In this document: positions 5,728-62,961 of the stretch, piece by piece
Layout of the letters: each line of letters opens with the position of its first letter
How positions within the stretch are numbered: position 1 is the first letter of the stretch
DNA from: Mobula hypostoma
Lineage: Eukaryota
Length of the DNA stretch: 64,000 nt
Assembly: GCF_963921235.1 (NCBI RefSeq)
Contig: NC_086107.1
Span: 96,908,001-96,972,000, forward strand
Direction of reading: 5' to 3'
Program-made: the position numbers and the translations under genes
Notes under the pieces: generated by a model
Told to the model about the DNA's origin: nothing
What the model saw: the letters and a program-made list of their open reading frames with translations, nothing else
Database searches by the model: none

Positions 5728-6059
5728 GTAAGTTCAGTTAATTCTTTTCAACCACTTTCAAAATGTGCAACCTCACTTGCCCTTTTCTCTTGCATCCCTC
5801 AAGTCAAATTTTACATAATTACCCCACTGGGACTTTTTTGACTCTTGCTTTCTCAATTTCCTTTCAACCTTTGATAGTGCTGTTTTGTTTAGTTGCAGTT
5901 CAGTTTTGAAAATTTAATCAATTGAAATCTAATCTTGAAATCCATCAGTGGCTTAAAATCAAATCTAGATTAGTCAAGCTTGGTGAGAAAATGAATGAAA
6001 GCATGGAGTGATGAAACCCCACGATGAAGGTCAGATTCTACAGAATGGAGTGGAAATAG

Positions 6060-10578: not shown

Positions 10579-10730
10579 GTATAAATTAACCATTTTGTTG
10601 GTTTCAACTTGTTTGTCTCTGGGTTTTTTCTAATTGTGAAGTAATGTACATTTAGGGAAATAGCTGGAGTAGCTATTTGCTCTATCATTTGTTTGTTATG
10701 TATCATGTCAGATGATGTGGGCGATTATAG

Positions 10731-11110
10731 TAACACACATAAAAGTTGCTGGTGAACGCAGCAGGCCAGGCAGCATTTATAGGAAGAGGTGCAGTCGATG
10801 TTTCAGGCCGAGACCCTTCGTCAGGACTAACTGAAGGAAGAGTGAGTAAGGGATTTGAAAGTTGGAGGGGGAGGGGGAGATCCAAAATGATAGGAGAAGA
10901 CAGGAGGGGGAGGGATGGAGCCAAGAGCTGGACAGGTGATAGGCAAAGGGGATATGAGAGGATCATGGGACAGGAGGTCCGGGAAGAAAGAAAAGGGGGA
11001 GGGGGAACCCAGAGGATGGGCAAGGGGTACCCCATCTGTTACTTATTTTTATAGACTTCTCTAACTTCCGCTAATGCCCCACCTCCCCCTCGTACCCCAT
11101 CCGTTATTTT
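10731..11110 (-). mobile_element. Penelope-like element 3' terminus fragment with hammerhead motif
   Basis: The - strand reads agtc-CTGACGA-agggtctcggcct-GAAAC-ATC-gact. The repeat family recurs throughout the window. Confidence 0.7.
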
Positions 11111-12599
11111 TATATTTCCCAAGCCCCAAATGTAAATCAAATTGTTGTGATATGTGGGAGAAACACACTTGGATTCCCTATCTTATACATCTCTACAAAA
11201 GGCAACTAAAGCAAAATTCGTTTTCTCTCTCAATTCTGATGGAGGGTCTTTAAGTTGAAACATTAATGGTTTGTCTTCATAGGTGCTGCCTGATCTGTTG
11301 TGTGTTTTCAGCATTTTCTATTTTATTTCAGTCATTGGTTAATGGCTGCATAATCAATGGATAAACTTTGGAGGGATTTTTAAAAGACAGTTAGGGATTC
11401 TTCAATAACATCATGAGTTTACATGAAACATTCCAAAATGGCTTATCTAGACCCTGGGTACGCAACCAGAGCCCCACTGGGACCTGATTATTCCTATCAA
11501 AAAATGAACTTGGTGTTTAAATTGGATAGGGTAGGATTGGCTCTTTATAAATTAGTGTGTCAAAACTCAGGATTTTATATGAAATTGTACAATCCTATAA
11601 ATGAAGATGTCAGGATCTGTTGGAGACTGAGGTTGGTTAATGTGGTTCATTAACTGAACTAAATGCTTGGTTAGTGGTGGGTATTAGTCCTGAATGAGGC
11701 CACACTGGCATTATGTCGGTTTTAAAATAAAAAGCAAGTAGCAAATTATTTCCCGATTTACTTTTATATTCCCCATCTTCAACAAGGCCTCCACTTGTTG
11801 AGACCCATATATTTCACAAATAATTGGTTTGTATGCCCTTAAGGTGTTTGTTTTTGCTGATTGTTTAATCAATCCATTAATATGACTTAATTACATAACG
11901 ATCTTGTAAAGGAAAAGCTTTGATTTAAACTCTGCATTTCACACCTATCACATTTTACATACAACTTTCTGTAGATAATTTTAACTCTGAACCCTACTAG
12001 ATCCTAAAGCTATCAAGTCATTTCGAGTTTCGACTAAATCAGTTTTGCGACTTTGGATAGATTTATTGTCCCAAATGGACTGCACGGTTTACATTGTGAT
12101 GCAGTACCATTCTGAATATCACTAGTCCAATTGTTGGTCTAAGGCCATAGCCAGTAGTGGTTTCGCCCTCGCTACACCCATCACATAATAGAAATTGCAA
12201 CACAAACAACCCATATTGAACATCATTTGTTGGGTTCTCATATCATTTATCAATGGGATTTCCATGTCAACTGCTTGTTTTCCACATTGTCCTTTCCTGA
12301 CTTACAACATTGGGACTAACGTAATGTAGCATGCAATTTGAGATTGTTTCGAAGTTCCTGGATTTCATTTTGATTTCCTGGTTGGCGTGTTTTAAACCTA
12401 TTTCTTTGGCGAAACCACAACTCTGAATGACAACAATTTTTATCGCAGGTTGGGTGGCGGACTTAAGTCAAGGATTAATTTTTTTCACCATAAAGATAGA
12501 AGTGCAGATATAAACAAAAATGCATAAATAAAACTATGTACTTAAAATGTAAACAGCATTATAAAAAGTGGTTTCGTGTTTACAGTATAGTGCAGTAGG

Positions 12600-23146: not shown

Positions 23147-23424
23147 AAAAAAACCTACATCCAAAACATCATAATGTACAACGTAACACCTAACATACAC
23201 GGCAAACTTAACCCTTAACAGTCTGGATGAATTCTGCCTAATGAAATTAAGGAGTCCCTACAGCCCCGACAAAAGGAGGTTGACATAACAATTCTCGCAG
23301 TGCTGCATGTTTCAGGCCGATGACCCCTCACCCTCTCCTCACCAATACTTAGCCCTCAACCAGTTGTGGTAAAGCAGGTAATCTGGTGCATGGGAGGCTA
23401 TTGATCAGAGATTAGACTATAAAC

Positions 23425-24490: not shown

Positions 24491-24932
24491 AAGGGACATG
24501 AGCATGATCAAAATTTTAATTGGCTCGACACAACATTGTGGGCTGAAGGGTCTGTTCTTGTGCTGTACTTTTTTATCTTCAATGTTCTCAAGACTGAGCG
24601 GAGAGAAGCAATTGGAAATGATATCAAACTTGGCTTTAAAATACAGAAAATGCTGGAATCACTCAGCAGGTCAGGCAGCAGCTGTGGTAAGATAAATTGG
24701 AGATCCTTCATCGGAACAACTACTTCTCTTTCCACAGGTGCTGCCCGACTTGCTGTGTTTTTAGCATTTTCTGTTTTTATTTTAGATTTCCAGCATTTGC
24801 AGTTTTTTTCTTGATCTTCATTTGGTTTTTAAAAAGCCTGGAATCTTTTTGAAGCCCTCCTTTGCCATCCTAATACATGTTACAGTCCATAGAAAGATGT
24901 TTATAATTATGTTTAGCTTAACCTCTGTTGAA

Positions 24933-26895: not shown

Positions 26896-27737
26896 GTGTG
26901 GAGTGCAAACTCCTACAGTCGGTATAATGTGGGATGTATGGTAAATATTAGTCAGTGCATGTGGTGTAATTTAGGACATTTCACACCTAATTATGAGACA
27001 GTGCGTGTGCATCTGCCTGATGTGTAAGGTGTGTGAGTATATTTACACATGTCCTCTATGTGTGTGAGTGCATATGTGTGTGTATGTGTGTGTTTGGCTG
27101 CTTAAGCAGAAGGCGTGTATCAGATGAGATGTGCCTTGGGCAGGAGAAGGGTAAGAAGTCTTCGAGGCTCCGCACCCATAGAGTTCCTTTGAGTTCTATG
27201 AAGAAGTACTTCCTTGGTGGTAACATGTTTTTTTTTCTCTGAAAGAGGAAGCATTCTTGAAGTTAGCAAATGGTTTGTGGGTGCAGGTTTCTTTTGAAGG
27301 TGTTTGTAGAGCGGGTATAATGTGGGAGGTAGTCTGACATCAGAAGTCACTGATTAAAGGCATACACATTGATGTCATTTCCACTGAAGATGCCCACCTT
27401 GTATGCATAAATAACTTGTTTTTTTTTTGGTTCCTGAACTAATTTTGTCTTTAGCTGCTGTTTACTACATTCCAGTTCATTTCAAAACTATTTTATAAAT
27501 TTGGGTCTATGCAGGTGACCTGCAATGGATGTGCAGTAGTCTAAAGACTCAAGAGGGAAGGAGGAAGGTGCTTGGCCGGGGTGTCTAGTTAGCCATAGCA
27601 TAGGATGCAGAGTACGAGTTTAATGTGGCAGATGATCCCACAACACAGGACAACACATCCATGACTGTCCTGACCATTGGTGTTGTCTAAAACGGGGTGG
27701 GGGGGGGAGAACTTCCCATGAATCTGACCAAAATATA

Positions 27738-28367
27738 CACTCAGTGACCAGTTTAGCAGGTATCTCCTGTTCCTAATAAAGTGTTCACTGAGTGTATGTT
27801 CATGGTCCTCTGCAGCTGTAGCCCATCTACTTCAAGGTTCAATGTGTTGTGCATTCAGAGCTACTCTTCTGAACACCACTGTTGTAACATGTGCTTATTT
27901 GAGTTACTGTCTCTTTCTTGTAAGCTTGAACCAGTCTGTCCAATCTCCTCTGAACTGCCACTCACTGGGTGCTTTATTTCTCACCATTCTCTGTAAACTC
28001 TAGAGACTGATGTTCGTGAAAATCCCAGGAGATCAACAGTTTCTGAGGTATTCAAACCACCCTGTCTGGCACCAATAACCAAGAGATCAGTGGGTTTTAA
28101 GGTACCCAAACCACCCTGTCTGGCACCAGCAACCAAGAGATCAATAGTTTCTGAGGTACTCAAACCACCTTGTCTGGTACCAACAAACAAAGTCACTTAG
28201 GTCATATTCCTTCCCCATTCTGATGCTGGGTTCTGAATGACTGAAGCTTTTGACCATGTCTGCATACTTTTATGCATTCGTTGGCTGCCACACGATTGGC
28301 AGATCAGGTAGGGATTTGCATTAGTGAGCAGGTGTACAGGTGTACCTACTAAAGTGGCCACTGAGTG
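27738..28367 (-). mobile_element. Tc1/mariner non-autonomous element
   Basis: TA|CACTCAGTG(A/G)CCA TIRs with TA flanks. Transposase HTH remnant GARQGGLNTSETVDLLGFSRTSVSRVYREW. Confidence 0.85.
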
Positions 28368-34489: not shown

Positions 34490-34770
34490 GCTTCCACCTA
34501 TTCCCCCCTAGATTCTCAGTTCATCCTCCCTCCCCCACCCACCTACTCTTCCCCTCACCTATCATCTGCCAGCTTGTGCTCCTTCCCCTCCCTCCACCTT
34601 CTCATTCTGGCTCCTTACCCCTTCCTCTCCAGTTCTGATGGAGGATCTCTGCCTGAACCATCGACTGTTTATTCCTCTCTGTAGATGTTGCCTGAGCTGC
34701 TGAGTTCCTCCAGCATATTGTGTGTGTCACTCTGGATTTCCGGCATCTGCAGAACCTCTTGTGTTTATGA
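34490..34770 (+). mobile_element. Penelope-like 3' terminus fragment
   Basis: cagtt-CTGATGG-..-GAACC-ATC-gactg is a degenerate hammerhead, followed by the family tail tgctgagttcctccagcat. Confidence 0.65.
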
Positions 34771-45519: not shown

Positions 45520-47909
45520 AAGCAGTAAGTTAAGATAAGTACTTCAATGTACTGAAGAATTCACAGAATGGAACTGAGCCAGGCTCGCAACAAGTTCTGC
45601 TTAATGCCAGCTGTAGGAGCGGTGTATCTATTTTCTGCCTATCTGCATTATACTTTGTGTTGTGCCTTTTAATTAGTCATGTGGATTGGAGTGTGGTAGA
45701 AGCAAATGAGTACAGTCACATATTCTCGCTTTGTGTCATTAGTTTAGTTTGGTTAGAGAGTGGGTGAGCCAGGGAATTAATATGTTTTTTGTTGACCACT
45801 TATTTTGCTTATTACTCTAATGTTGTTATCGCCAATTTTGATTGCTCGTCTTTGCTGGCTTGGTGATAAAGGATTGAACACACTTTTTTCAACAGTGCCA
45901 AATCCCTCACTCAGTCTCTGAGTGGTTTTGGTTTGTCTTTCACGTAGATGCTACACCCGCCAGGGTGAAGTGGTTAGCACAACACTTTACAGTGCAGAGT
46001 TCAATTCCCCACCACTGCCTGCAAGGAGGTTGTACATTCTCCCTGTCACATTCGGGTACTCCGGTTTCCTCCCCCAGCCCAAGTTGGTAGCTTAGTTGGT
46101 CATTGTAAATTGTCCTGTGATTAGGCTAGGGTTATACTGGGGGATTTGCTGGGAGGTCTGGAAGGGTCTATTCCACATTGTATCTCAGTAGATCCATCAA
46201 TCAGTAAATAAATAGATAGGTAAGTAGATAAATAGCACTGAACTGTCCAATGGATTTGACTACCCTAATCTAATATTTCAAGAATGCTGTCAGGACAAAT
46301 CAAATAATATTCAGGCTCAAATATTGATATTGTCAGGGAATTTAAAACAACACTCGGACCCAGATATTCAATTGTCTTTTATTTCCATGGCCGCGTGAAA
46401 ATCGTTTCTCAGAGAGCGGCGATTCTGAATTATACAGTCCATAATGCTCCATTTTAAGACAAGCTACAGGCTTCAGGTCAAGGTTTCCTGATAGGGTAAA
46501 CAGGTGTAACAGTCCAATTATTTGTGAGACTGAGTAGAAGTTGCATTTCACAACAACCACTGCAGCTAGGGAAGGGTGGTTAGCAATTAGCTTAGCATCT
46601 TACTGGTATGTTTTAAAAATACTTGCTTTCCATATCCCCTTTTATTTTATTGACATTTCTGTTTCCTTCTACTAGGACATTCAGCAGTCACACATTATCA
46701 TTGACCCTCCAAATTCCCCCACAAACGCACATCGGGTAGCATTTTGTAGCATTTCATAAGAGCATGGAAATTCGGCCATCTCTCACTTTGGAGAGTCTGG
46801 TCACTTGGCTGTACTTCTACTCCCTGAGGGTAGAGAGGACCAAGAGGGTACGGACAAGGGAGGCACAGGAGCGCTTACAGGACTACTTTGAATTGGTAGA
46901 CCGGACTGTATTCAGGGATTCATCTTTGAATCTGGATGAGTATGCCACAGTTGCCACCAACTTCATTAAAGCCTGTGTGGACGAGTGTGTGTCTACAAAA
47001 ACTCACTGTACATTCTCAAACCAAAAGCTATGGATGAACCAGGAGGTTTGTTGTCAGCTGAGGGCTAGATCTGTGGCATTTAAGTCTGGTGACCTAGATC
47101 TCTATAAGGAAACCAGACATGTCTTGTGGAGAAACAAGAGAAAATCTGCAGGTGCTGGAAATCCGAGCAACGCACACAAAATGCTGGAGGAGCTCAGCAG
47201 GCCAGGCAGCATCTATGGAAAAAAGAACAGTCGATGTTTTGGCCCGAAACGTCGACTCTATTTTTTCCCATGACTTGCAGAGGGCTATTTCAAGAGCTAA
47301 GGAACAATTCTGAGTGAGGTTGGTGGCGACATCGGACGCACAACAATTCTGGCAGGGTTTGCAGGACATTACTTCCTACAAAGTGAAGCCCAATGGCATG
47401 AATGGCAGCGATGCTTCACTACCAGATGAGCTCAGCACCTTTTATGCCCGCTTTGAAAGGGAGAATATAACTACAGCTGTGAAGATCCCCGCTGCACCCG
47501 GTGACCCTGTGATCTCTGTCTCGGAGGATGATGTCAGGCTGTCTTTCAGGAGGGTGATCCCTTGCAATGTGGCAGGCACTGATGGAGTACCTGGTAAGGC
47601 TCTGAAAACTTGTGCTAACCGAATGCCAGGTGTATTCAAGGACATTTTCAACCTCTTACTGCTTCAGTGTGAAGCTCCCACCTGCTTCAAAAGGGCAACA
47701 ATTATATCAGTACCCAAGAAGAGCAGGGTGAGCTGCCTTAATGACTATCGTCCAGTAGCACTCACATCTATGGTGATGAAATACTTTGAGAGGTTGGTCA
47801 TGGCTAGAATGAACTCCTGCCTCTGCGAGTACCTGGACCCACTGCAATTTGACTATCACCATAATAGATCTATGGTAGATACAATCTCAGTGGCTCTTCA
47901 ATGGCCCTA

Positions 47910-48108
47910 TGATGTCGATGCTTCCCTTACCCCATCCCTTTGTCTTTCAAATTACTGATCTTTCAACCGAACCTACAAGCATTCTTCACATCCTTCCCCC
48001 TCCTTCATTCTTCAGTCCTGACGAAGGGTTCGGGCCCGAAACATCGACTCATCATTTCCACTGATGCTGCCCGACCTGCTGAGTTCCTCCAGCGTACTGT
48101 AAGTGTTC
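47910..48108 (+). mobile_element. Penelope-terminus insertion with hammerhead motif and 11-bp TSD
   Basis: TSD CAATGGCCCTA at 47899-47909 and 48109-48119. Contains agtc-CTGACGA-agggttcgggccc-GAAAC-ATC-gact. Confidence 0.8.
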
Positions 48109-49155
48109 CAATGGCCCTAGATCACCTGGACAATATAAACACCTGTGTCAGTATGCTGTTTGTTGTCTATAGGCCAGCATTTAACACCATCATTCCCACA
48201 GTCCTGATTGATAAGCTACAGAACCTGGGCCTCTGTACCTCCCTCTGCAATTGGTTGCTTGATGTTCTAACCAGAAGACCACAATCTGTGCAGATTGGTG
48301 CTAATATCTCTTCCTCGCTGATTATCAACACTGCTGTACTCTCTCTGTGCCCATGACTGTGTGGCTATGTCTAGCTCAAATTCCTTCTATAAATTGGCTG
48401 ATGATACAACTATTATTGGGAGAATCTCAGATGGTGATGACAGGGCGTACAGGAGTGAGATATACCAGCTAGATGAGTGGTGCCACAGCAACAACCTTGC
48501 AGTGAATGTCAGTAAGACCAAAGAGCTGATTGTGGACTTCAGAAAGGGTAAGATGGGGGAACACATACCAATCCTCATAGAGAGATCAGAAGTGGAGAGG
48601 GTGGGCAGTTTCAAGTTCCTGGGTGTCAAGATCTCTGAAGATCTAACCTGGTCCCAACATATTGATGCAGCTATAAAGAAGGCAAGACAGCAGCTAGATT
48701 ACATTAGGAGTTTGAGGAGATTTGGTATGTCACCTAAAACACTCAAACTTCTCCACATGTACTGTGGAGAACATTCTAACAGGCTGCATCACTGTCTGGT
48801 ATGTGGGGAGGGGGTGCTACTGCACAGGATCGAAAGAAGCTACAGAAAGTTGTAAAAATAGTTAGATTCATCTTGGGTACTAGCCCCTGTAGTATCCAAG
48901 ACTTCTTCGAGGAGCTGTGCCTGAGAAAGGCAGCGTCCATTATTAAGGGTCCCCACCACCTCTTCTCATTGTTGCCATCAGGAAGGAAGTACAGGAGCCT
49001 GAAGGCACACAGTCAGCGATTCAGGAACAGCTTCTTCCCCTCTGCCATCCGATTTCTGAATGAATACAGAACCCATGAACACTAGCTCACTTTTTATTTA
49101 TATTATTTCTGTTTTAGCACTATTTTTAATCTAACTATTTAATATATATTTTCAG

Positions 49156-50474: not shown

Positions 50475-52159
50475 GTAGAGCAACCCACAAAAATTGCTGG
50501 AGGAACTCAGCAAGTCAGGCAGAATCTACAGAGAGGAACAAACAGTCAATGTTTCAGGCTTAGACCCTTCTCCAGTCTTGGTGTTCCCCCAGGGCTGTGT
50601 ATGGTTGAAGCCCCATACCCAGTCCCCTGGATATCAAGATCAGAATTCCTCTGGCCATTTTTATTTTTTATATTTTAATAATCGATGTACATGCACCTGC
50701 CTTTGATGCTAGATTTCTGCTGCTTTGACGTCTGTTTGCATTCTGTTGTTTCTAGCTCCAAAGTGGCTGTCCTTTCTATACCGATCTCAATCTGCCAAAC
50801 TTGTTTAATGCCTCTTCATGACTGTGCGCTTCTGTGGACAATAAAAGCAGAGGATGCTCTTAGCCTGAGTGGCCCCCGCAGACAGAGGAGCAGCGGAGGC
50901 TTTGGATTGGGGGGGTGCCCTTCCTCAAAATTAGGAGAGTGAGAAGACAGGAGGTGCGGAAGGGAGGACAGAGTTGTTGTGGTGCAGGCCAAAGATGTCA
51001 TGGTAAAAATTACCATCAAGACCCATTTAGAATGAAGTGATGAAAAAGCAAAGTGCAGGCACATCAGTGGAAAAAATAATGCTGTTTATCGGAGATCATA
51101 GAACATCACAGCACAGTACAGGGCCTTTGGCCCACTACGTGGTGCCAGTCTTTGAACCTACTTTAAGATCAATCTAACCCTTCCCTCTTACATAGTCCTC
51201 CATTTTTCTATCATCCGTGTGCATACCTAAGAGTTATTTAATTGCTCTTAATGGGCAATTAATGGTTTGCCTTGTGTTTCTGTAATATCATTCATGGAGG
51301 AACATTGTATCATTTCTTAATGCATGCATTTCTAAATGACAATAAAAGAGGACTGCGTGTCCTAAAAATCTAAAACCTAATCTAATGCCCTTCTACCCCA
51401 ATGCTCTTGTTGAAGAGTATTCCTCAAACCCACCGCTCTTTGTGTAAAATCTACCTCTGATATCCCTCTATATTTTTCCTCAATCACCTTAAAGTTATGT
51501 CTCCTTATAAAAATCTCTGACTAACCACTCAATCTTAGAATGCAGAAGCCGAGTGTAAGGAAGCTGGCTGTAGGACCATTATCTACCCTGTGGAGGTTGG
51601 ATGCTGGGGCTTCATCGACACATCGATGACTGAGTTACTCTGTGAAATGGCAGTGACTGGAGGGAGGCTCAAGATGGTCACCAGAGAAGAGGCAGAAAAG
51701 AGCAGCTTTTGGCTGTGGCTGAGGAGGAAGGACAGAAATTGGGGCGAGGGGGGAACCCAACTAACCCCGTTGGAAGCTGAAGGGGGGCCCCTACCACTGA
51801 TCCACCACCAGGAGATGTACCAAGGCTAAGGGAGCAAAACATCAATGGCTGATGACCTAAGGGCACTGTTAGAGGTGTGCGGGCAGCAGGACTTTATTAG
51901 TTTTTTTTTGTGTGCCATACTCTGCCAGAGCCTCGGCGACCACGTTTTCAAGTGGCTGTCTTGGAGGAAAGATCCTGTGAGTGGTCCCCCACATCCTTCT
52001 CACAGCGCAGTGTTTTATTTTTACAAGGCCGATTTGCGAGCTCGACACTCAACCTGGCACGGATGGAAAGCGTGCCCGGCGGTGGCCCAACTGGGTTTGA
52101 ACTCGGGCACCTTCGCTCCGGAGCCCGGCGCTGATGTCACTGCCCCACCAGCTGGCCTC

Positions 52160-57277: not shown

Positions 57278-58869
57278 AAGGTGGGTTTATGGTCAGATTA
57301 AACTGAAGCCCTGTCTGCCTTCTCAGGCATTACATGAAAAACAGGAGCATCCTGCTCAATTTTTATCACTGTAATTAATTCCGCGTAATGTAGTCCGGCA
57401 GCCCATTCCTTGTACCCACCACCCTCCATGTGGGGAAACCTACCCCACTGTTCACCTTTTCACTCTAACCTTAAACTTATGCCCTCTAGGTTTAGATTTC
57501 CCTACCCTGGGGAAGAGACTGTGACCATCCCCTTTTATCTATGCCACCTCCTGATATACCCGTCTCTATAAAGTCACCCCTCAGCTCCTAACGTGTTGGA
57601 AACCACTGACCTTTTTTAAATAATACTTTTAATAAGATTTGTACTTTTATAACAAACTGGTGTATTTTTCACACTCACTGGCAGAAAGCGGTATAGCAGC
57701 TAAACTAACGGTTTATCACCCGCAGGGGAAAATCTGCAGGTGTTGGAAATCCAAAGCAACGCACGCAGGATCCTGAAGGAACTCAGCAAGGCAGGCAGCA
57801 TCTGTGGAAAAGGGTAAACAGTGGATGTCTTGGGCCGAGACCCTTCAGCAGAACTTGTGACCCCTTCATCTGGCCTGCTGAATTTATCATTTCTCATCTT
57901 TCATTGGCTGAGTATTAGCACATGACCAACATGATGTAACTGTTTTAATTATGTAGACTATTAATTAATTTATCTGTATCTAAAGAATATCTTATCTATA
58001 AAAGTGATAGATTTTTCAGAAGCACCATCTTTTATTCTTTTGTCTCAAAGCCTGTAACATTAATTCCACTCTTAGCATCGTTTTTCAGCTCTTTACTTGG
58101 TTTGATGAGTATTTGCCTTTTTGTTTGTACACTAAAATAAACTGAAATCTTGGAATTAAGACTACTCATCATTCCTGACTCCCGGAAGATCCCTAAGGAG
58201 CAGAAATTAAGCAGTGATTCAACACATACAAATCCAGAGCAGGAGCTGGCCATTTCGTCCCTTGAACCCTGCTCTGCCACTTAATATCATGGATGACAAT
58301 AACCTTTCACCCCCTCAATGACCCAGCCGGCTATGTTGACTGAAGTTGGGGCTTTGACTTCATCTATCCTTGTTTTAAGAAGTTCAACATCTTCACTCCC
58401 CAGAGAACGATTTGCTCATCTCTGAGTGAACTGGGCAATGCCAGATATTGAACATTTATGGTTTTACGTTCTCTCACTAGAGGAAACACACCCACCCTGT
58501 TGGGACCCCACAGGATCTTGTGTGTTTTAGTCCCATGCAGGCAATGGATGGGGTTGCTTGGACAGATCAGGGAGCCTGTTAGATAAGAGTGTTTCATCAG
58601 TCTGGGTGTAGGGTGAGCAGCAGTATCATTGATTCTCTTTCTGAAGACTGGGTCTGCTTTTATTTTTAAAATTCCAGATAAATTTTATTCATATTAGAAT
58701 TCAGCAGAACATAATATAGGGCATTCAGATGAATATTTTCATAAAAGGTCGATAGTATATCATCAGTTCTCATTCTTCGTTCTTTCTTAGAAGTTTAAAG
58801 AAATTCAGAATGTAAATGAAGACAGAGAAACCTGTACACATGTACACTGGAAATATCATATGGTATGGA

Positions 58870-62500: not shown

Positions 62501-62961
62501 GATCCCTCAGTCCAGGGGTGATTGCACCACCTGCAGGCGTTGCCTGTGATCGAATGAATCAAAGAGAAGCAGTTTGCTTCCAGTGTCCTGTTTCCCAGTT
62601 CCAGCTGGAAGCACAAACTCTGAGGGCAGATTGTGGGAAGTGCTGGGAGATTCTGAATCAAGATTTGAAGATTGTTTCACACACAAAATGCTGGAGGAAC
62701 TCAGCAGGACGGCTTAAGGGTCTTGGCCCAAAACATCAACTGTACTCTTTTCCATAGATGCTTCCTGGCCTGCTGAGTTCCTTCAGTATTGTGTGTGTCT
62801 TGCCTATATATTATGGTCTTATTTCTTGAGTTTCTTGACCTTCATCATCCCTCCCTTCTAATTTCACTTTCTAAGGCCGCAGTCCTTCTCTAAACCACTC
62901 ATTCGTCCTGTCTCACTCTCCACGTTTAAGATAAATAAAGGTTAGGTGAGCTTTATTTGTT

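What the first reader, a model, noticed from the sequence alone, without database searches (positions are those of the whole stretch)
48012..48049. Dispersed family of minimal type-I hammerhead ribozyme motifs
Seen: cagtc-CTGACGA-a-gggt(tcgg)gccc-GAAAC-ATC-gact. This is stem I (agtc/gact), the CUGANGA core, stem II, GAAA, and an NUH cleavage triplet with almost no stem III. Related copies are at 10792-10828(-, best preserved), ~11235-11268, ~23308-23330(-), 34630-34668, 47229-47258, 50543-50570(-), 57819-57848(-) and ~62712-62742. Known: Penelope-like elements carry minimal hammerheads thought to cleave as dimers through a palindromic GAAACGUC. Inference: most copies are inactivated by CpG decay (GTC to ATC), and the family may be a very abundant ribozyme reservoir in this genome. 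This copy moved as a 199-bp unit with an 11-bp TSD.
Basis: partly seen in the sequence, partly recalled or inferred. Interest (0 to 1): 0.7.

Follow-up and report, generated by a model that had tools for sequence, protein, structure and literature searches.

The report
Hammerhead motifs in ray Penelope retroelements
The small self-cutting-RNA motif is real, but it is the known minimal hammerhead carried near the 3' end of Penelope-like jumping genes, here in broken, mostly decayed copies in a ray-like genome that holds tens of thousands of them.

Summary
The motif at 48012-48049 is exactly as described. It lies in a 199-bp, 5'-truncated 3' end of a Penelope-like element (PLE), flanked by an 11-bp target duplication inside a LINE reverse-transcriptase gene.

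BLAST confirmed 6 of the 8 other listed copies. It did not confirm 11235 or 23308. Only 2 of the 9 keep both catalytic boxes.

Elsewhere in the same 3.48-Gb genome the motif sits about 300 nt after an RT plus GIY-YIG ORF and about 70-105 nt before the element's 3' end. Head-to-tail tandems also occur.

Genome-wide, 46,104 copies of the 31-nt motif keep every CpG, and 98,092 match when CpG decay is allowed. At least five families share the core but have different, complementary stems I and II.

This is the min-HHR of metazoan PLEs (Cervera and De la Pena 2014), so it is a new member of a known kind. CpG decay of GTC to ATC holds for the window's old copies, but for only 15 of 94 sampled young ones. 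No RNA evidence of cleavage was obtained. Earlier reports of this scan reached the same verdict on other windows of this genome.

The parts
48012..48049 (+). Minimal type-I hammerhead motif. Helix I 5' strand is AGTC at 48014-48017, and the CUGANGA box is at 48018-48024. The unpaired A is at 48025. Helix II is GGGT at 48026-48029 paired with GCCC at 48034-48037, with loop TCGG between them. GAAA is at 48038-48041, followed by C15.2 at 48042, A at 48043 (G in the family), U16.1 at 48044 and C17 at 48045. The predicted cleavage lies between 48045 and 48046. Helix I 3' strand is GACT at 48046-48049.
   Evidence: aligned with family members
47910..48108 (+). 199-bp 5'-truncated 3' end of a Penelope-like element ('family B'), without the optional 3' tail. 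It is 94.6% identical to a longer relative.
47899..47909 (+). Left copy of the target-site duplication CAATGGCCCTA.
48109..48119 (+). Right copy of the target-site duplication CAATGGCCCTA.
47701..48330 (+). Host of the insertion: a decayed LINE reverse-transcriptase reading frame that continues across the insert once one repeat copy is removed.
   Evidence: the homologue in L010 hits RVT_1 at E 6e-11
10729..11029 (-). PLE 'family A' 3' end, 93% identical to the reference 3'UTR. Its hammerhead at 10794-10828 has a complete core, U at 11.1 and ATC in place of GTC.
34631..34762 (+). Old PLE 3' end (73.5% identity) with a mutated core (CTGATGG, GAACC).
47132..47258 (.). Head-to-head fold-back. The minus-strand arm (47132-47250) is truncated inside the hammerhead. 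The short plus-strand arm (47229-47258) keeps GAAACGTCGACT but has no CUGANGA box.
50479..50570 (-). Old PLE 3' end truncated inside the CUGANGA box (it starts at GAAGGG), with ATT in place of GTC.
57731..57855 (-). Old PLE 3' end (about 72% identity) with a deletion in the core and GAAAC changed.
62690..62787 (.). Head-to-head fold-back of two truncated PLE ends. The plus-strand arm lacks the CUGANGA box. This fold-back is also the source of the spurious Plastid-psbJ hairpin hit.
24652..24759 (.). Fold-back of tail sequence only, with no hammerhead.
11235..11330 (+). Probable very old copy with a decayed core (CTGATGG) and tail. It is recognisable by eye but was not found by BLAST.

Best explanation
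The motif is the minimal hammerhead ribozyme (min-HHR) that Penelope-like retrotransposons carry in their terminal repeat (pLTR, 3'UTR). The window copy is a dead by-product: a 199-bp, 5'-truncated cDNA of a PLE RNA, inserted by target-primed reverse transcription into an older LINE.

Shown here:
- In source elements the motif lies about 300 nt after the stop codon of an RT plus GIY-YIG ORF.
- It lies about 70 nt (short form) or about 105 nt (form with the optional tail) before the element's 3' end.
- It lies about 135 nt before the start codon of the next unit in a head-to-tail tandem.
- Because almost every truncated copy starts upstream of that point, almost every copy carries the motif. 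That explains the dispersed family.

Inferred, from published work on PLE hammerheads:
- In a transcript that starts in the upstream pLTR of a tandem, two motifs pair through the ACGU palindrome (A15.1 C15.2 G16.2 U16.1) to build the missing helix III.
- They then cut after GUC, possibly with help from the element's own protein, and so trim the element RNA from its co-transcript.

The RNAs that were actually copied into the genome were almost all uncut at this site. The window copy has ACAU in place of ACGU, cannot form that 4-bp helix III with a like partner, and is most likely inactive.
For: Motif and anatomy:
- Searches show the motif itself.
- In L018 the ORF ends at 2010 and the motif starts at 2315. 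The next open frame begins at 2400 and its ATG lies at about 2478. The motif occurs again at 5827, giving a unit of 3,512 bp.
- The ORF hits RVT_1 (E 1.3e-5) followed by GIY-YIG (E 3.5e-4).
- Its relatives (2,868 at E<=1e-10) carry PF00078 and, in part, PF01541.
- Relatives of the window copy run upstream into an ORF end reading ...LEEQHLIYRLGSLQPLGMNIEFSNFR*.

PLE signatures:
- Copies show two alternative 3' ends about 35 nt apart, which matches the optional tail. That tail is described in PMC11167929 (passages read).
- Inverted, 5'-truncated partner arms are common.
- Contig depth falls about 1000-fold at the 3' end of the element.

Conservation of the ribozyme:
- Families A and B align only from helix I through the tail (92 of 123 positions, E 3e-14), not across the roughly 300 nt before it.
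- A pattern that excludes families A and B finds 284 motifs against 16 for the control. They fall into several families with the same core and different self-complementary helix II sequences.
- On 22 representatives, 79.2% of cells pair against 63.3% after shuffling (0 of 500 shuffles reach it). Six of 9 pairs change on both sides, and slid controls give 24-54%.
- On 56 unique types, helix II positions 2-4 pair in 48-52 of 56, against about 26-31 after shuffling (0 of 2000).

Abundance.

Published frame: PMC4209133 (main text read) describes min-HHRs in PLE pLTRs, the unpaired base after A9, the G10.1-C11.1 pair, the palindromic 15.2-16.2 positions, and low activity seen only as dimers.
Against: - No cleavage was observed. 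No RNA run on record was found, and only contigs could be laid.
- Rfam hammerhead models give no hit at E<=10, even on 261 nt around an intact copy.
- 94 of 100 tail-anchored copies read straight through the cleavage site.
- Copies whose homology starts exactly at the site are about 1%. That is no more frequent than at +6 nt. The corrected estimates at offsets -6, -3, 0, +3 and +6 are about 228, 157, 377, 121 and 391.
- The most numerous subfamily (84 of the first 100 CpG-intact copies) has U at 11.1, a G.U wobble in place of the conserved G10.1-C11.1 pair.
- Thermodynamic folds favour an alternative GACG/CGUC pairing, or an extended duplex, over the active fold.
- Both Pfam hits are below their curated cut-offs.
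- For an anole PLE, ribozyme mutants did not affect insertion in vitro and no RNA-seq ends were seen at the site (PMC11167929, passages read).
Confidence: 0.9

Rival explanations
1. The hammerhead-shaped sequence is kept in these PLEs mainly as a structural or protein-recognition module near the reverse-transcription start. It would serve RNP assembly or template choice, and cleavage would be marginal or absent in vivo.
For: - 94 of 100 inserted copies span the cleavage site, and there is no spike of 5' ends at the site.
- The dominant subfamily carries a G.U at 10.1-11.1.
- The motif lies only about 70-105 nt from the 3' ends where reverse transcription must begin.
- The tail just after it can form a long hairpin (z -2.1).
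- Published: ribozyme mutants did not change insertion in vitro, and cleavage needed the element protein (PMC11167929, passages). Dimer activity in vitro is low (PMC4209133).
Against: Every catalytic-core position (C3 U4 G5 A6 G8 A9, G12 A13 A14, U16.1 and an H at 17) is invariant across at least five families whose helices are otherwise unrelated. A simple protein-binding hairpin would not need that. The ACGU palindrome is also kept.
Confidence: 0.2
2. The 199-bp copy and its many short relatives are members of a non-autonomous, retrozyme- or SINE-like element. Such an element would be a short pLTR-derived RNA carrying the hammerhead, mobilised in trans by PLE proteins, and not a set of random truncations of the full element.
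For: - 5' ends of family-A copies that hold a perfect motif cluster within 50 nt upstream of it. They account for 14 of 28 independent loci, against only 2 ends in the 250 nt further upstream.
- Locus L030 starts at the same base as the window copy.
- Family D units share 5' ends at -116 to -124.
- A 2026 preprint argues that animal retrozymes derive from PLE pLTRs (10.64898/2026.07.22.740005, abstract and Results read).
Against: - 10 of the 11 closest relatives of the window copy continue upstream, most into the ORF end.
- No direct tandem arrays of the unit lie in the window, and tandem arrays are the defining layout of non-LTR retrozymes.
- The sample is small and was selected for an intact motif.
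- A pause of the reverse transcriptase at the structured, C/T-rich region would give the same cluster.
Confidence: 0.15
3. The match to a hammerhead is a chance likeness in a conserved repeat.
For: Rfam models do not score it. The descriptor is short, and 2 of its 4 window matches are chance-like.
Against: Reversed-pattern controls give 0 against 98,092 and 16 against 284. Helices covary in independent families. The position beside an RT plus GIY-YIG ORF is the published one (PMC4209133).
Confidence: 0.01

Closest known systems
Minimal hammerheads (min-HHR) of metazoan Penelope-like elements (Cervera and De la Pena 2014, PMC4209133; dimer cleavage attributed to Lunse, Weinberg and Breaker 2017, which I saw only as a reference and in the summary given by PMC6765202)
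   Same: - Type-I topology with a short helix I of 4-5 bp.
- An unpaired base between A9 and 10.1.
- A G at 10.1 paired with 11.1.
- No real helix III, but a palindromic ACGU.
- Position in the pLTR beside an RT plus GIY-YIG ORF.
- Several consensus families per genome with compensatory changes.
- Pairs on opposite strands about 100 bp apart.
- Most motifs occur as single copies in truncated elements.
   Different: - Host lineage: an elasmobranch, most like a ray by protein identity. My searches found no paper on hammerheads in cartilaginous-fish PLEs. One preprint samples a single chondrichthyan for tandem retrozymes.
- Scale: 46,104 CpG-intact and 98,092 CpG-tolerant copies of one 31-mer, against about 4,000 (coelacanth) and about 9,000 (Xenopus), which that paper called remarkable.
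- Helix II of the main families is 4 bp, not 7-8.
- The dominant subfamily has G.U at 10.1-11.1.
- Sequence variability is low within the main family.
Poseidon PLE of Anolis carolinensis (PAc), characterised in vitro (PMC11167929, passages read)
   Same: - RT plus GIY-YIG ORF and pLTR-ORF-pLTR repeats.
- Two alternative 3' ends that define an optional 30-40 bp tail.
- A hammerhead close to the start of the ORF.
- Inserted copies derive from RNA that is uncut at the ribozyme.
   Different: In PAc the ORF starts inside helix II, and reverse transcription starts 111-118 bp into the ORF. Here the motif lies about 135 nt before the ATG, and both 3' ends lie before the ATG. The clade of the ray element was not determined.
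Non-LTR retrozymes of animals (tandem hammerhead repeats that give circular RNAs; PMC7229834 seen in listing and abstract only; 10.64898/2026.07.22.740005, abstract and Results read)
   Same: A type-I hammerhead with a short palindromic helix III, a proposed origin from PLE pLTRs, and many solo monomers.
   Different: Retrozymes are direct tandem arrays of 150-400 bp units. The copies here are dispersed, 5'-truncated or head-to-head, and their relatives run into a protein-coding element.
Rfam hammerhead families (type I and III models; names recalled, not returned by any search)
   Same: The same catalytic boxes.
   Different: No hit at gathering score or at E<=10 in the window, or on an intact copy. 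The missing helix III is a likely reason, but this was not tested.

Membership tests
min-HHR of metazoan PLEs | Catalytic boxes CUGANGA and GAAA | tested here: met
   Present at 48018-48024 and 48038-48041. They are invariant in 22 of 22 representatives of five families.
min-HHR of metazoan PLEs | U16.1 followed by H17 at the cleavage site | tested here: met
   The window copy has AUC. The family has GUC.
min-HHR of metazoan PLEs | Helices I and II formed and supported by compensatory changes | tested here: met
   79.2% of cells pair against 63.3% after shuffling (0 of 500), and 6 of 9 pairs change on both sides. On 56 unique types, helix II positions 2-4 and helix I positions 1-2 pair beyond all 2000 shuffles. 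Caveats: the rows are related, helix I of family C pairs poorly, and position II.2 was constrained by the search pattern.
min-HHR of metazoan PLEs | One unpaired nucleotide between A9 and 10.1 | tested here: met
   A at 48025. It is A in most types and C, T or G in a few.
min-HHR of metazoan PLEs | G10.1-C11.1 pair | tested here: met
   The window copy has G-C. Across 22 representatives there are 19 G-C and 3 G.U. The dominant family-A subfamily has G.U in 84 of the first 100 CpG-intact copies.
min-HHR of metazoan PLEs | Palindromic 15.2-16.2 (ACGU), allowing a dimeric helix III | tested here: not met
   The family consensus is ACGU, which meets the feature. The window copy reads ACAU at 48041-48044, so this particular copy fails the feature through decay.
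min-HHR of metazoan PLEs | Location in the terminal repeat of an element encoding RT plus GIY-YIG | tested here: met
   L018 is a tandem with RVT_1 (E 1.3e-5) and GIY-YIG (E 3.5e-4). Both are below the curated cut-offs but in the right order. Relatives carry PF00078 and PF01541. The window copy itself is truncated, but its relatives reach an ORF end.
min-HHR of metazoan PLEs | Self-cleavage, as a dimer | not testable with these tools
   No RNA run is on record, and contigs cannot show RNA ends. The genomic proxy (copies that start at the site) shows no clear excess.
Penelope-like elements | Optional 30-40 bp 3' tail (two alternative 3' ends) | tested here: met
   Families A and B end either near ...GTGTTGCTT / ...GTAAGTGTT or about 35 nt further on. 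Family C ends at +74 or +115. The window copy has the short end.
Penelope-like elements | Head-to-tail tandem (pLTR-ORF-pLTR) and frequent inverted, 5'-truncated partner | tested here: met
   The tandem is in L018. Inverted partners occur in 8 of 28 loci, and 24 of 100 tail-anchored rows lie in 12 close head-to-head pairs. The window has three such fold-backs.
Rfam hammerhead models | Score at or above the family's gathering threshold | tested here: not met
   There is no hammerhead hit at gathering score, none at E<=10 in the window, and none on an intact copy.
Non-LTR retrozymes | Direct tandem repeats of a short unit, each with a hammerhead | tested here: not met
   Window copies are kilobases apart or head-to-head. 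No tandem-repeat search of the whole genome was run.

The most novel reading that the evidence does not exclude
This ray-like genome may hold the largest reservoir of sequence-intact hammerhead motifs yet counted: about 46,000 CpG-intact copies of one 31-mer, mostly a G10.1.U11.1 variant. The short 'motif plus tail' copies have 5' ends that pile up within 50 nt upstream of the motif, and about a quarter of them lie in head-to-head fold-backs. They may record a distinct short pLTR transcript that is retrotransposed by internal initiation at the upstream tail. That would be a retrozyme-like side cycle run by an autonomous PLE. If so, thousands of intact motifs embedded in host transcripts could also pair in trans and cut them.
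Probability: 0.15. Interest if true: 0.55.

Novelty: new member of a known kind. Interest (0 to 1): 0.25.

Why it matters
For annotation, these dispersed motifs should be masked as PLE 3' ends and not called as ribozyme genes. Rfam-based scans will miss all of them.

For PLE biology, the family offers an unusually large and young natural data set: tens of thousands of near-identical copies plus several older families with different helices. That allows three questions to be asked:
- Which ribozyme positions are kept in source elements?
- Why does a G.U variant at 10.1-11.1 dominate?
- Were the inserted RNAs cut? Here, almost none were.

Beyond that the finding is an ordinary case of a published pattern.

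Tried and rejected
- **Rfam.** Scans of the window at gathering score and at E<=10, and of 261 nt around an intact copy, gave no hammerhead hit. The listed weak hits (mir-9256, Plastid-psbJ, UnaL2) are hairpins or fold-backs.
- **Pfam on short ORF pieces** of L009 and L010: no family. A longer ORF was needed.
- **RNA evidence.** No RNA holder was listed. All 22 runs are 'RNA?' by guess and kept as contigs. Laying 4 of them showed only copy-number-like depth and the element's 3' boundary. There were no places where many molecules begin or end. This says nothing either way about expression or cleavage.
- **Thermodynamic folding** of monomers and homodimers. The minimum-energy structures keep helices I and II in 3 of 4 constructs, but they add a GACG/CGUC pairing or an extended duplex. 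This does not inform on catalysis.
I used the loci in hand and pattern counts instead.
- **Test of the idea that copies starting at the cleavage site record in vivo cutting.** Raw counts at offsets -6, -3, 0, +3 and +6 are 64, 97, 159, 51 and 110. After correction for detection there is no clear peak at 0. The offset-0 set is also inflated by junctions made ambiguous by the helix-I palindrome (CAG|GACTG) and by an 8-nt deletion variant (CCT|GACTG). The idea is rejected as unsupported, not disproved.
- **Splice site.** A polypyrimidine-CAG lies just 5' of helix I, but I saw no convincing donor site upstream by eye and did not pursue it.
- **Lunse et al. 2017** could not be read because it is not held.

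Full report
**Observation.** A loose descriptor (CTGAYGAR, 6-30 nt, GAAAC) has 4 matches in the window, against 0.22 expected. Two are the family copies at 48018-48042(+) and 10800-10824(-). The other two have no helix II.

I extracted all nine listed sites and ran BLAST with family 3' ends. Six of the eight other sites are confirmed: 10729-11029(-), 34631-34762(+), 47132-47250(-) with a short plus-strand arm, 50479-50570(-), 57731-57855(-) and 62716-62780(+). The site at ~11235 is recognisable only by eye, and ~23308 is not confirmed. A tail-only fold-back at 24652-24759 had been missed. Only two copies keep both catalytic boxes. The others are mutated in the core or truncated inside it.

Rfam gives no hammerhead hit at gathering score or at E<=10, and none on 261 nt around an intact copy.

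**What the copy is.** CAATGGCCCTA occurs at 47899-47909 and at 48109-48119, and the 199 bp between them is the insert. The flanks translate to one LINE reverse-transcriptase frame. The left flank is 66% identical to an RT piece that hits RVT_1, so the repeat is a target duplication. Its last four bases also match the element, so the duplication is 7-11 bp.

The genome holds the window at G000:C45 and is 3.48 Gb. Searching it with the 199 bp gave 41 matches at 92-100% identity. I aligned the window copy with its 11 closest relatives (12 sequences in all). Ten of the 11 relatives continue upstream, most through a C/T-rich 3'UTR into an ORF end reading ...LEEQHLIYRLGSLQPLGMNIEFSNFR*. One relative (L030) starts at the same base as the window copy. 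The 199 bp is thus a 5'-truncated end of a longer element, which I call family B. The copy at 10729-11029 belongs to a second element, family A, at 93% identity.

**The element.** Walking upstream from perfect family-A motifs led to ORF pieces with YIDD and GIY-YIG-like motifs. A protein search of the genome gave 134,396 first-look candidates, with open frames of up to 935 aa.

In locus L018 two units lie head to tail:
- an ORF that ends at 2010, with RVT_1 at E 1.3e-5 and then GIY-YIG at E 3.5e-4, both just under Pfam's cut-offs;
- the motif at 2315;
- the element's 3' end near 2448;
- the next open frame, from 2400 with its ATG near 2478;
- the motif again at 5827.

The unit is 3,512 bp. The closest named proteins come from rays (88-94% identity) and sharks (about 71%), and relatives carry PF00078 and, in part, PF01541. 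This is the pLTR-ORF-pLTR layout of Penelope-like elements.

Copies of families A, B and C end at either of two points about 35-40 nt apart. That is the 'optional 30-40 bp tail' described as a PLE signature and explained by two internal reverse-transcription start sites (PMC11167929, passages read).

Contigs of four public runs show summed depth falling about 1000-fold at L018 2445-2490. That fixes the 3' boundary. The kind of those runs is only guessed, so they say nothing about expression.

**Is it a ribozyme motif or only a conserved repeat?** Families A and B align only from helix I through the tail (92 of 123 positions, E 3e-14), not across the roughly 300 nt between the stop codon and the motif.

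A pattern built to exclude families A and B (10.2 not G, 11.2 not C) found 284 motifs, against 16 for the reversed control. These fall into further families with the same core, the same unpaired base after A9 and the same GAAACGUC, but with unrelated, self-complementary helix II sequences. Examples are GAUGGC...GUCAUC, GCC.CUC...GAG.GGC, GUUGCC...GGUAAC and GUCACC...GGUGAC. Helix I also differs between families: AGUC/GACU, AGAA/UUCU and UUGCA/UGCAA.

- On 56 unique types, helix II positions 2-4 pair in 48-52 of 56, against 26-31 after shuffling. Helix I positions 1-2 pair in 37 and 46 of 56, against 26 and 33. None of 2000 shuffles reaches these values.
- On a 22-row alignment, 79.2% of cells pair against 63.3% shuffled (0 of 500). 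Six of 9 pairs change on both sides, and slid controls give 24-54%.
- Caveats: the rows are related, one pair was constrained by the pattern, and helix I of family C pairs poorly.

All features that Cervera and De la Pena (PMC4209133, main text read) list for PLE min-HHRs are present in the family. The window copy lacks only the ACGU palindrome.

**Abundance and decay.**
- The 31-mer has 104,944 matches with up to 2 mismatches.
- It has 98,092 matches when only the five CpGs may vary.
- It has 46,104 matches with every CpG intact and C or T at 11.1. Controls are 0 in each case.
- Of the first 100 CpG-intact copies, 84 have T at 11.1. The other CpGs are intact in them, so this is a subfamily marker giving G10.1.U11.1 and not random decay.

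In a sample anchored on the tail, and so unbiased for the motif (37,736 hits, first 100 rows read), 94 read through the cleavage site and 15 of these carry ATC or ATT. It does not fit the family.

**How it most likely works.**

Shown here: the motif lies in the terminal repeat, about 135 nt before the next unit's ATG and about 70-105 nt before the 3' end. That is why nearly every truncated copy carries it.

Established elsewhere:
- In tandem PLEs the downstream unit's transcript starts in the upstream pLTR (PMC6765202, passage).
- Hammerheads without a stable helix III act as dimers (PMC4209133; PMC6765202).
- Activity in vitro is low (PMC4209133; PMC6765202).
- In one PLE, activity depends on the element's protein (PMC11167929).

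Inferred: two motifs pair through ACGU and cut after GUC, trimming the element RNA.

Against a large role in the inserted RNAs: 94% of copies span the site. Copies whose homology begins exactly at the site are about 1%. After correction for detection, the estimates at offsets -6, -3, 0, +3 and +6 are about 228, 157, 377, 121 and 391 (raw 64, 97 with 31 palindromic rows set aside, 159, 51, 110). There is no clear peak.

Genome-wide, such starts are no commoner than at a neighbouring offset. The result agrees with the in vitro report that uncut RNA is the main substrate (PMC11167929).

The window copy, with ACAU, cannot form the 4-bp dimer helix with a like partner. It has no promoter context that I could see, so it is best read as inert.

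**Comparison and novelty.** This is a member of the published min-HHR/PLE class. What differs:
- the host lineage, since my searches found no paper on cartilaginous-fish PLE hammerheads, and a 2026 preprint samples one chondrichthyan for tandem retrozymes only;
- the copy number, about ten times the roughly 4,000 and 9,000 that the 2014 paper called remarkable;
- a 4-bp helix II;
- the dominant G.U subfamily.

Supplements of the cited papers were not read, and species tables there might already list sharks or rays. Earlier reports of this scan on other windows of the same genome reached the same verdict.

**Verdict.** Interest is 0.25.

Noticed in passing
G000 loci L008 and L061-L088 (family A): 5' ends of copies that hold a perfect motif cluster just upstream of it. 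Of 28 independent loci, 14 run at least 110 nt upstream (12 of them into the ORF). Six stop 4-48 nt upstream without inversion, and 8 have an inverted partner arm. Only 2 ends lie in the 250 nt further upstream. The cause could be a pause or template switch of the reverse transcriptase, or a short pLTR transcript.
   Followed up: partly
G000, rows; window 47132-47258, 62690-62787 and 24652-24759: Head-to-head fold-backs are very common. In the first 100 tail-anchored rows, 24 lie in 12 pairs less than 130 bp apart. In one search, 14 pairs are perfect palindromes centred exactly on GTC|GAC, the predicted cleavage site.
   Followed up: partly
G000; window 10794-10824(-): The most numerous subfamily has U at 11.1 (a G.U wobble at the base of helix II) with all other CpGs intact. 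This is a source-element variant, not decay.
   Followed up: partly
L018 2290-2314; window 48000-48013: A polypyrimidine run ending in CAG, like a 3' splice site, lies directly 5' of helix I in families A and B. In Drosophila virilis Penelope the intron end maps to the 5' end of helix I (PMC4209133). I saw no donor site.
   Followed up: no
L018 2350-2430; L021 1650-1730: The tail after the motif can form a long hairpin (AGAUGCUG pairing with CAGCAUCU) that spans the two alternative 3' ends. The fold z-score is -2.1 in family A and -1.27 in family B. There is a weak likeness to the UnaL2 LINE 3' element at E 2.5.
   Followed up: partly
L017 2330-2480: A copy with a 935-aa open frame begins about 8-12 nt downstream of the predicted cleavage site, so it carries tail, ORF, 3'UTR, motif and tail. 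This is a single case.
   Followed up: no
window 27733-27799: A near-perfect 67-nt hairpin scores on both strands against mir-9256 (39 and 37 bits, below the gathering score of 80). It is probably an inverted-repeat element.
   Followed up: no
L009 and L010: The loci around PLE copies are packed with fragments of other LINE reverse transcriptases (RVT_1 at E 5.7e-34 and 6e-11). PLE ends are often nested in them, as in the window.
   Followed up: no
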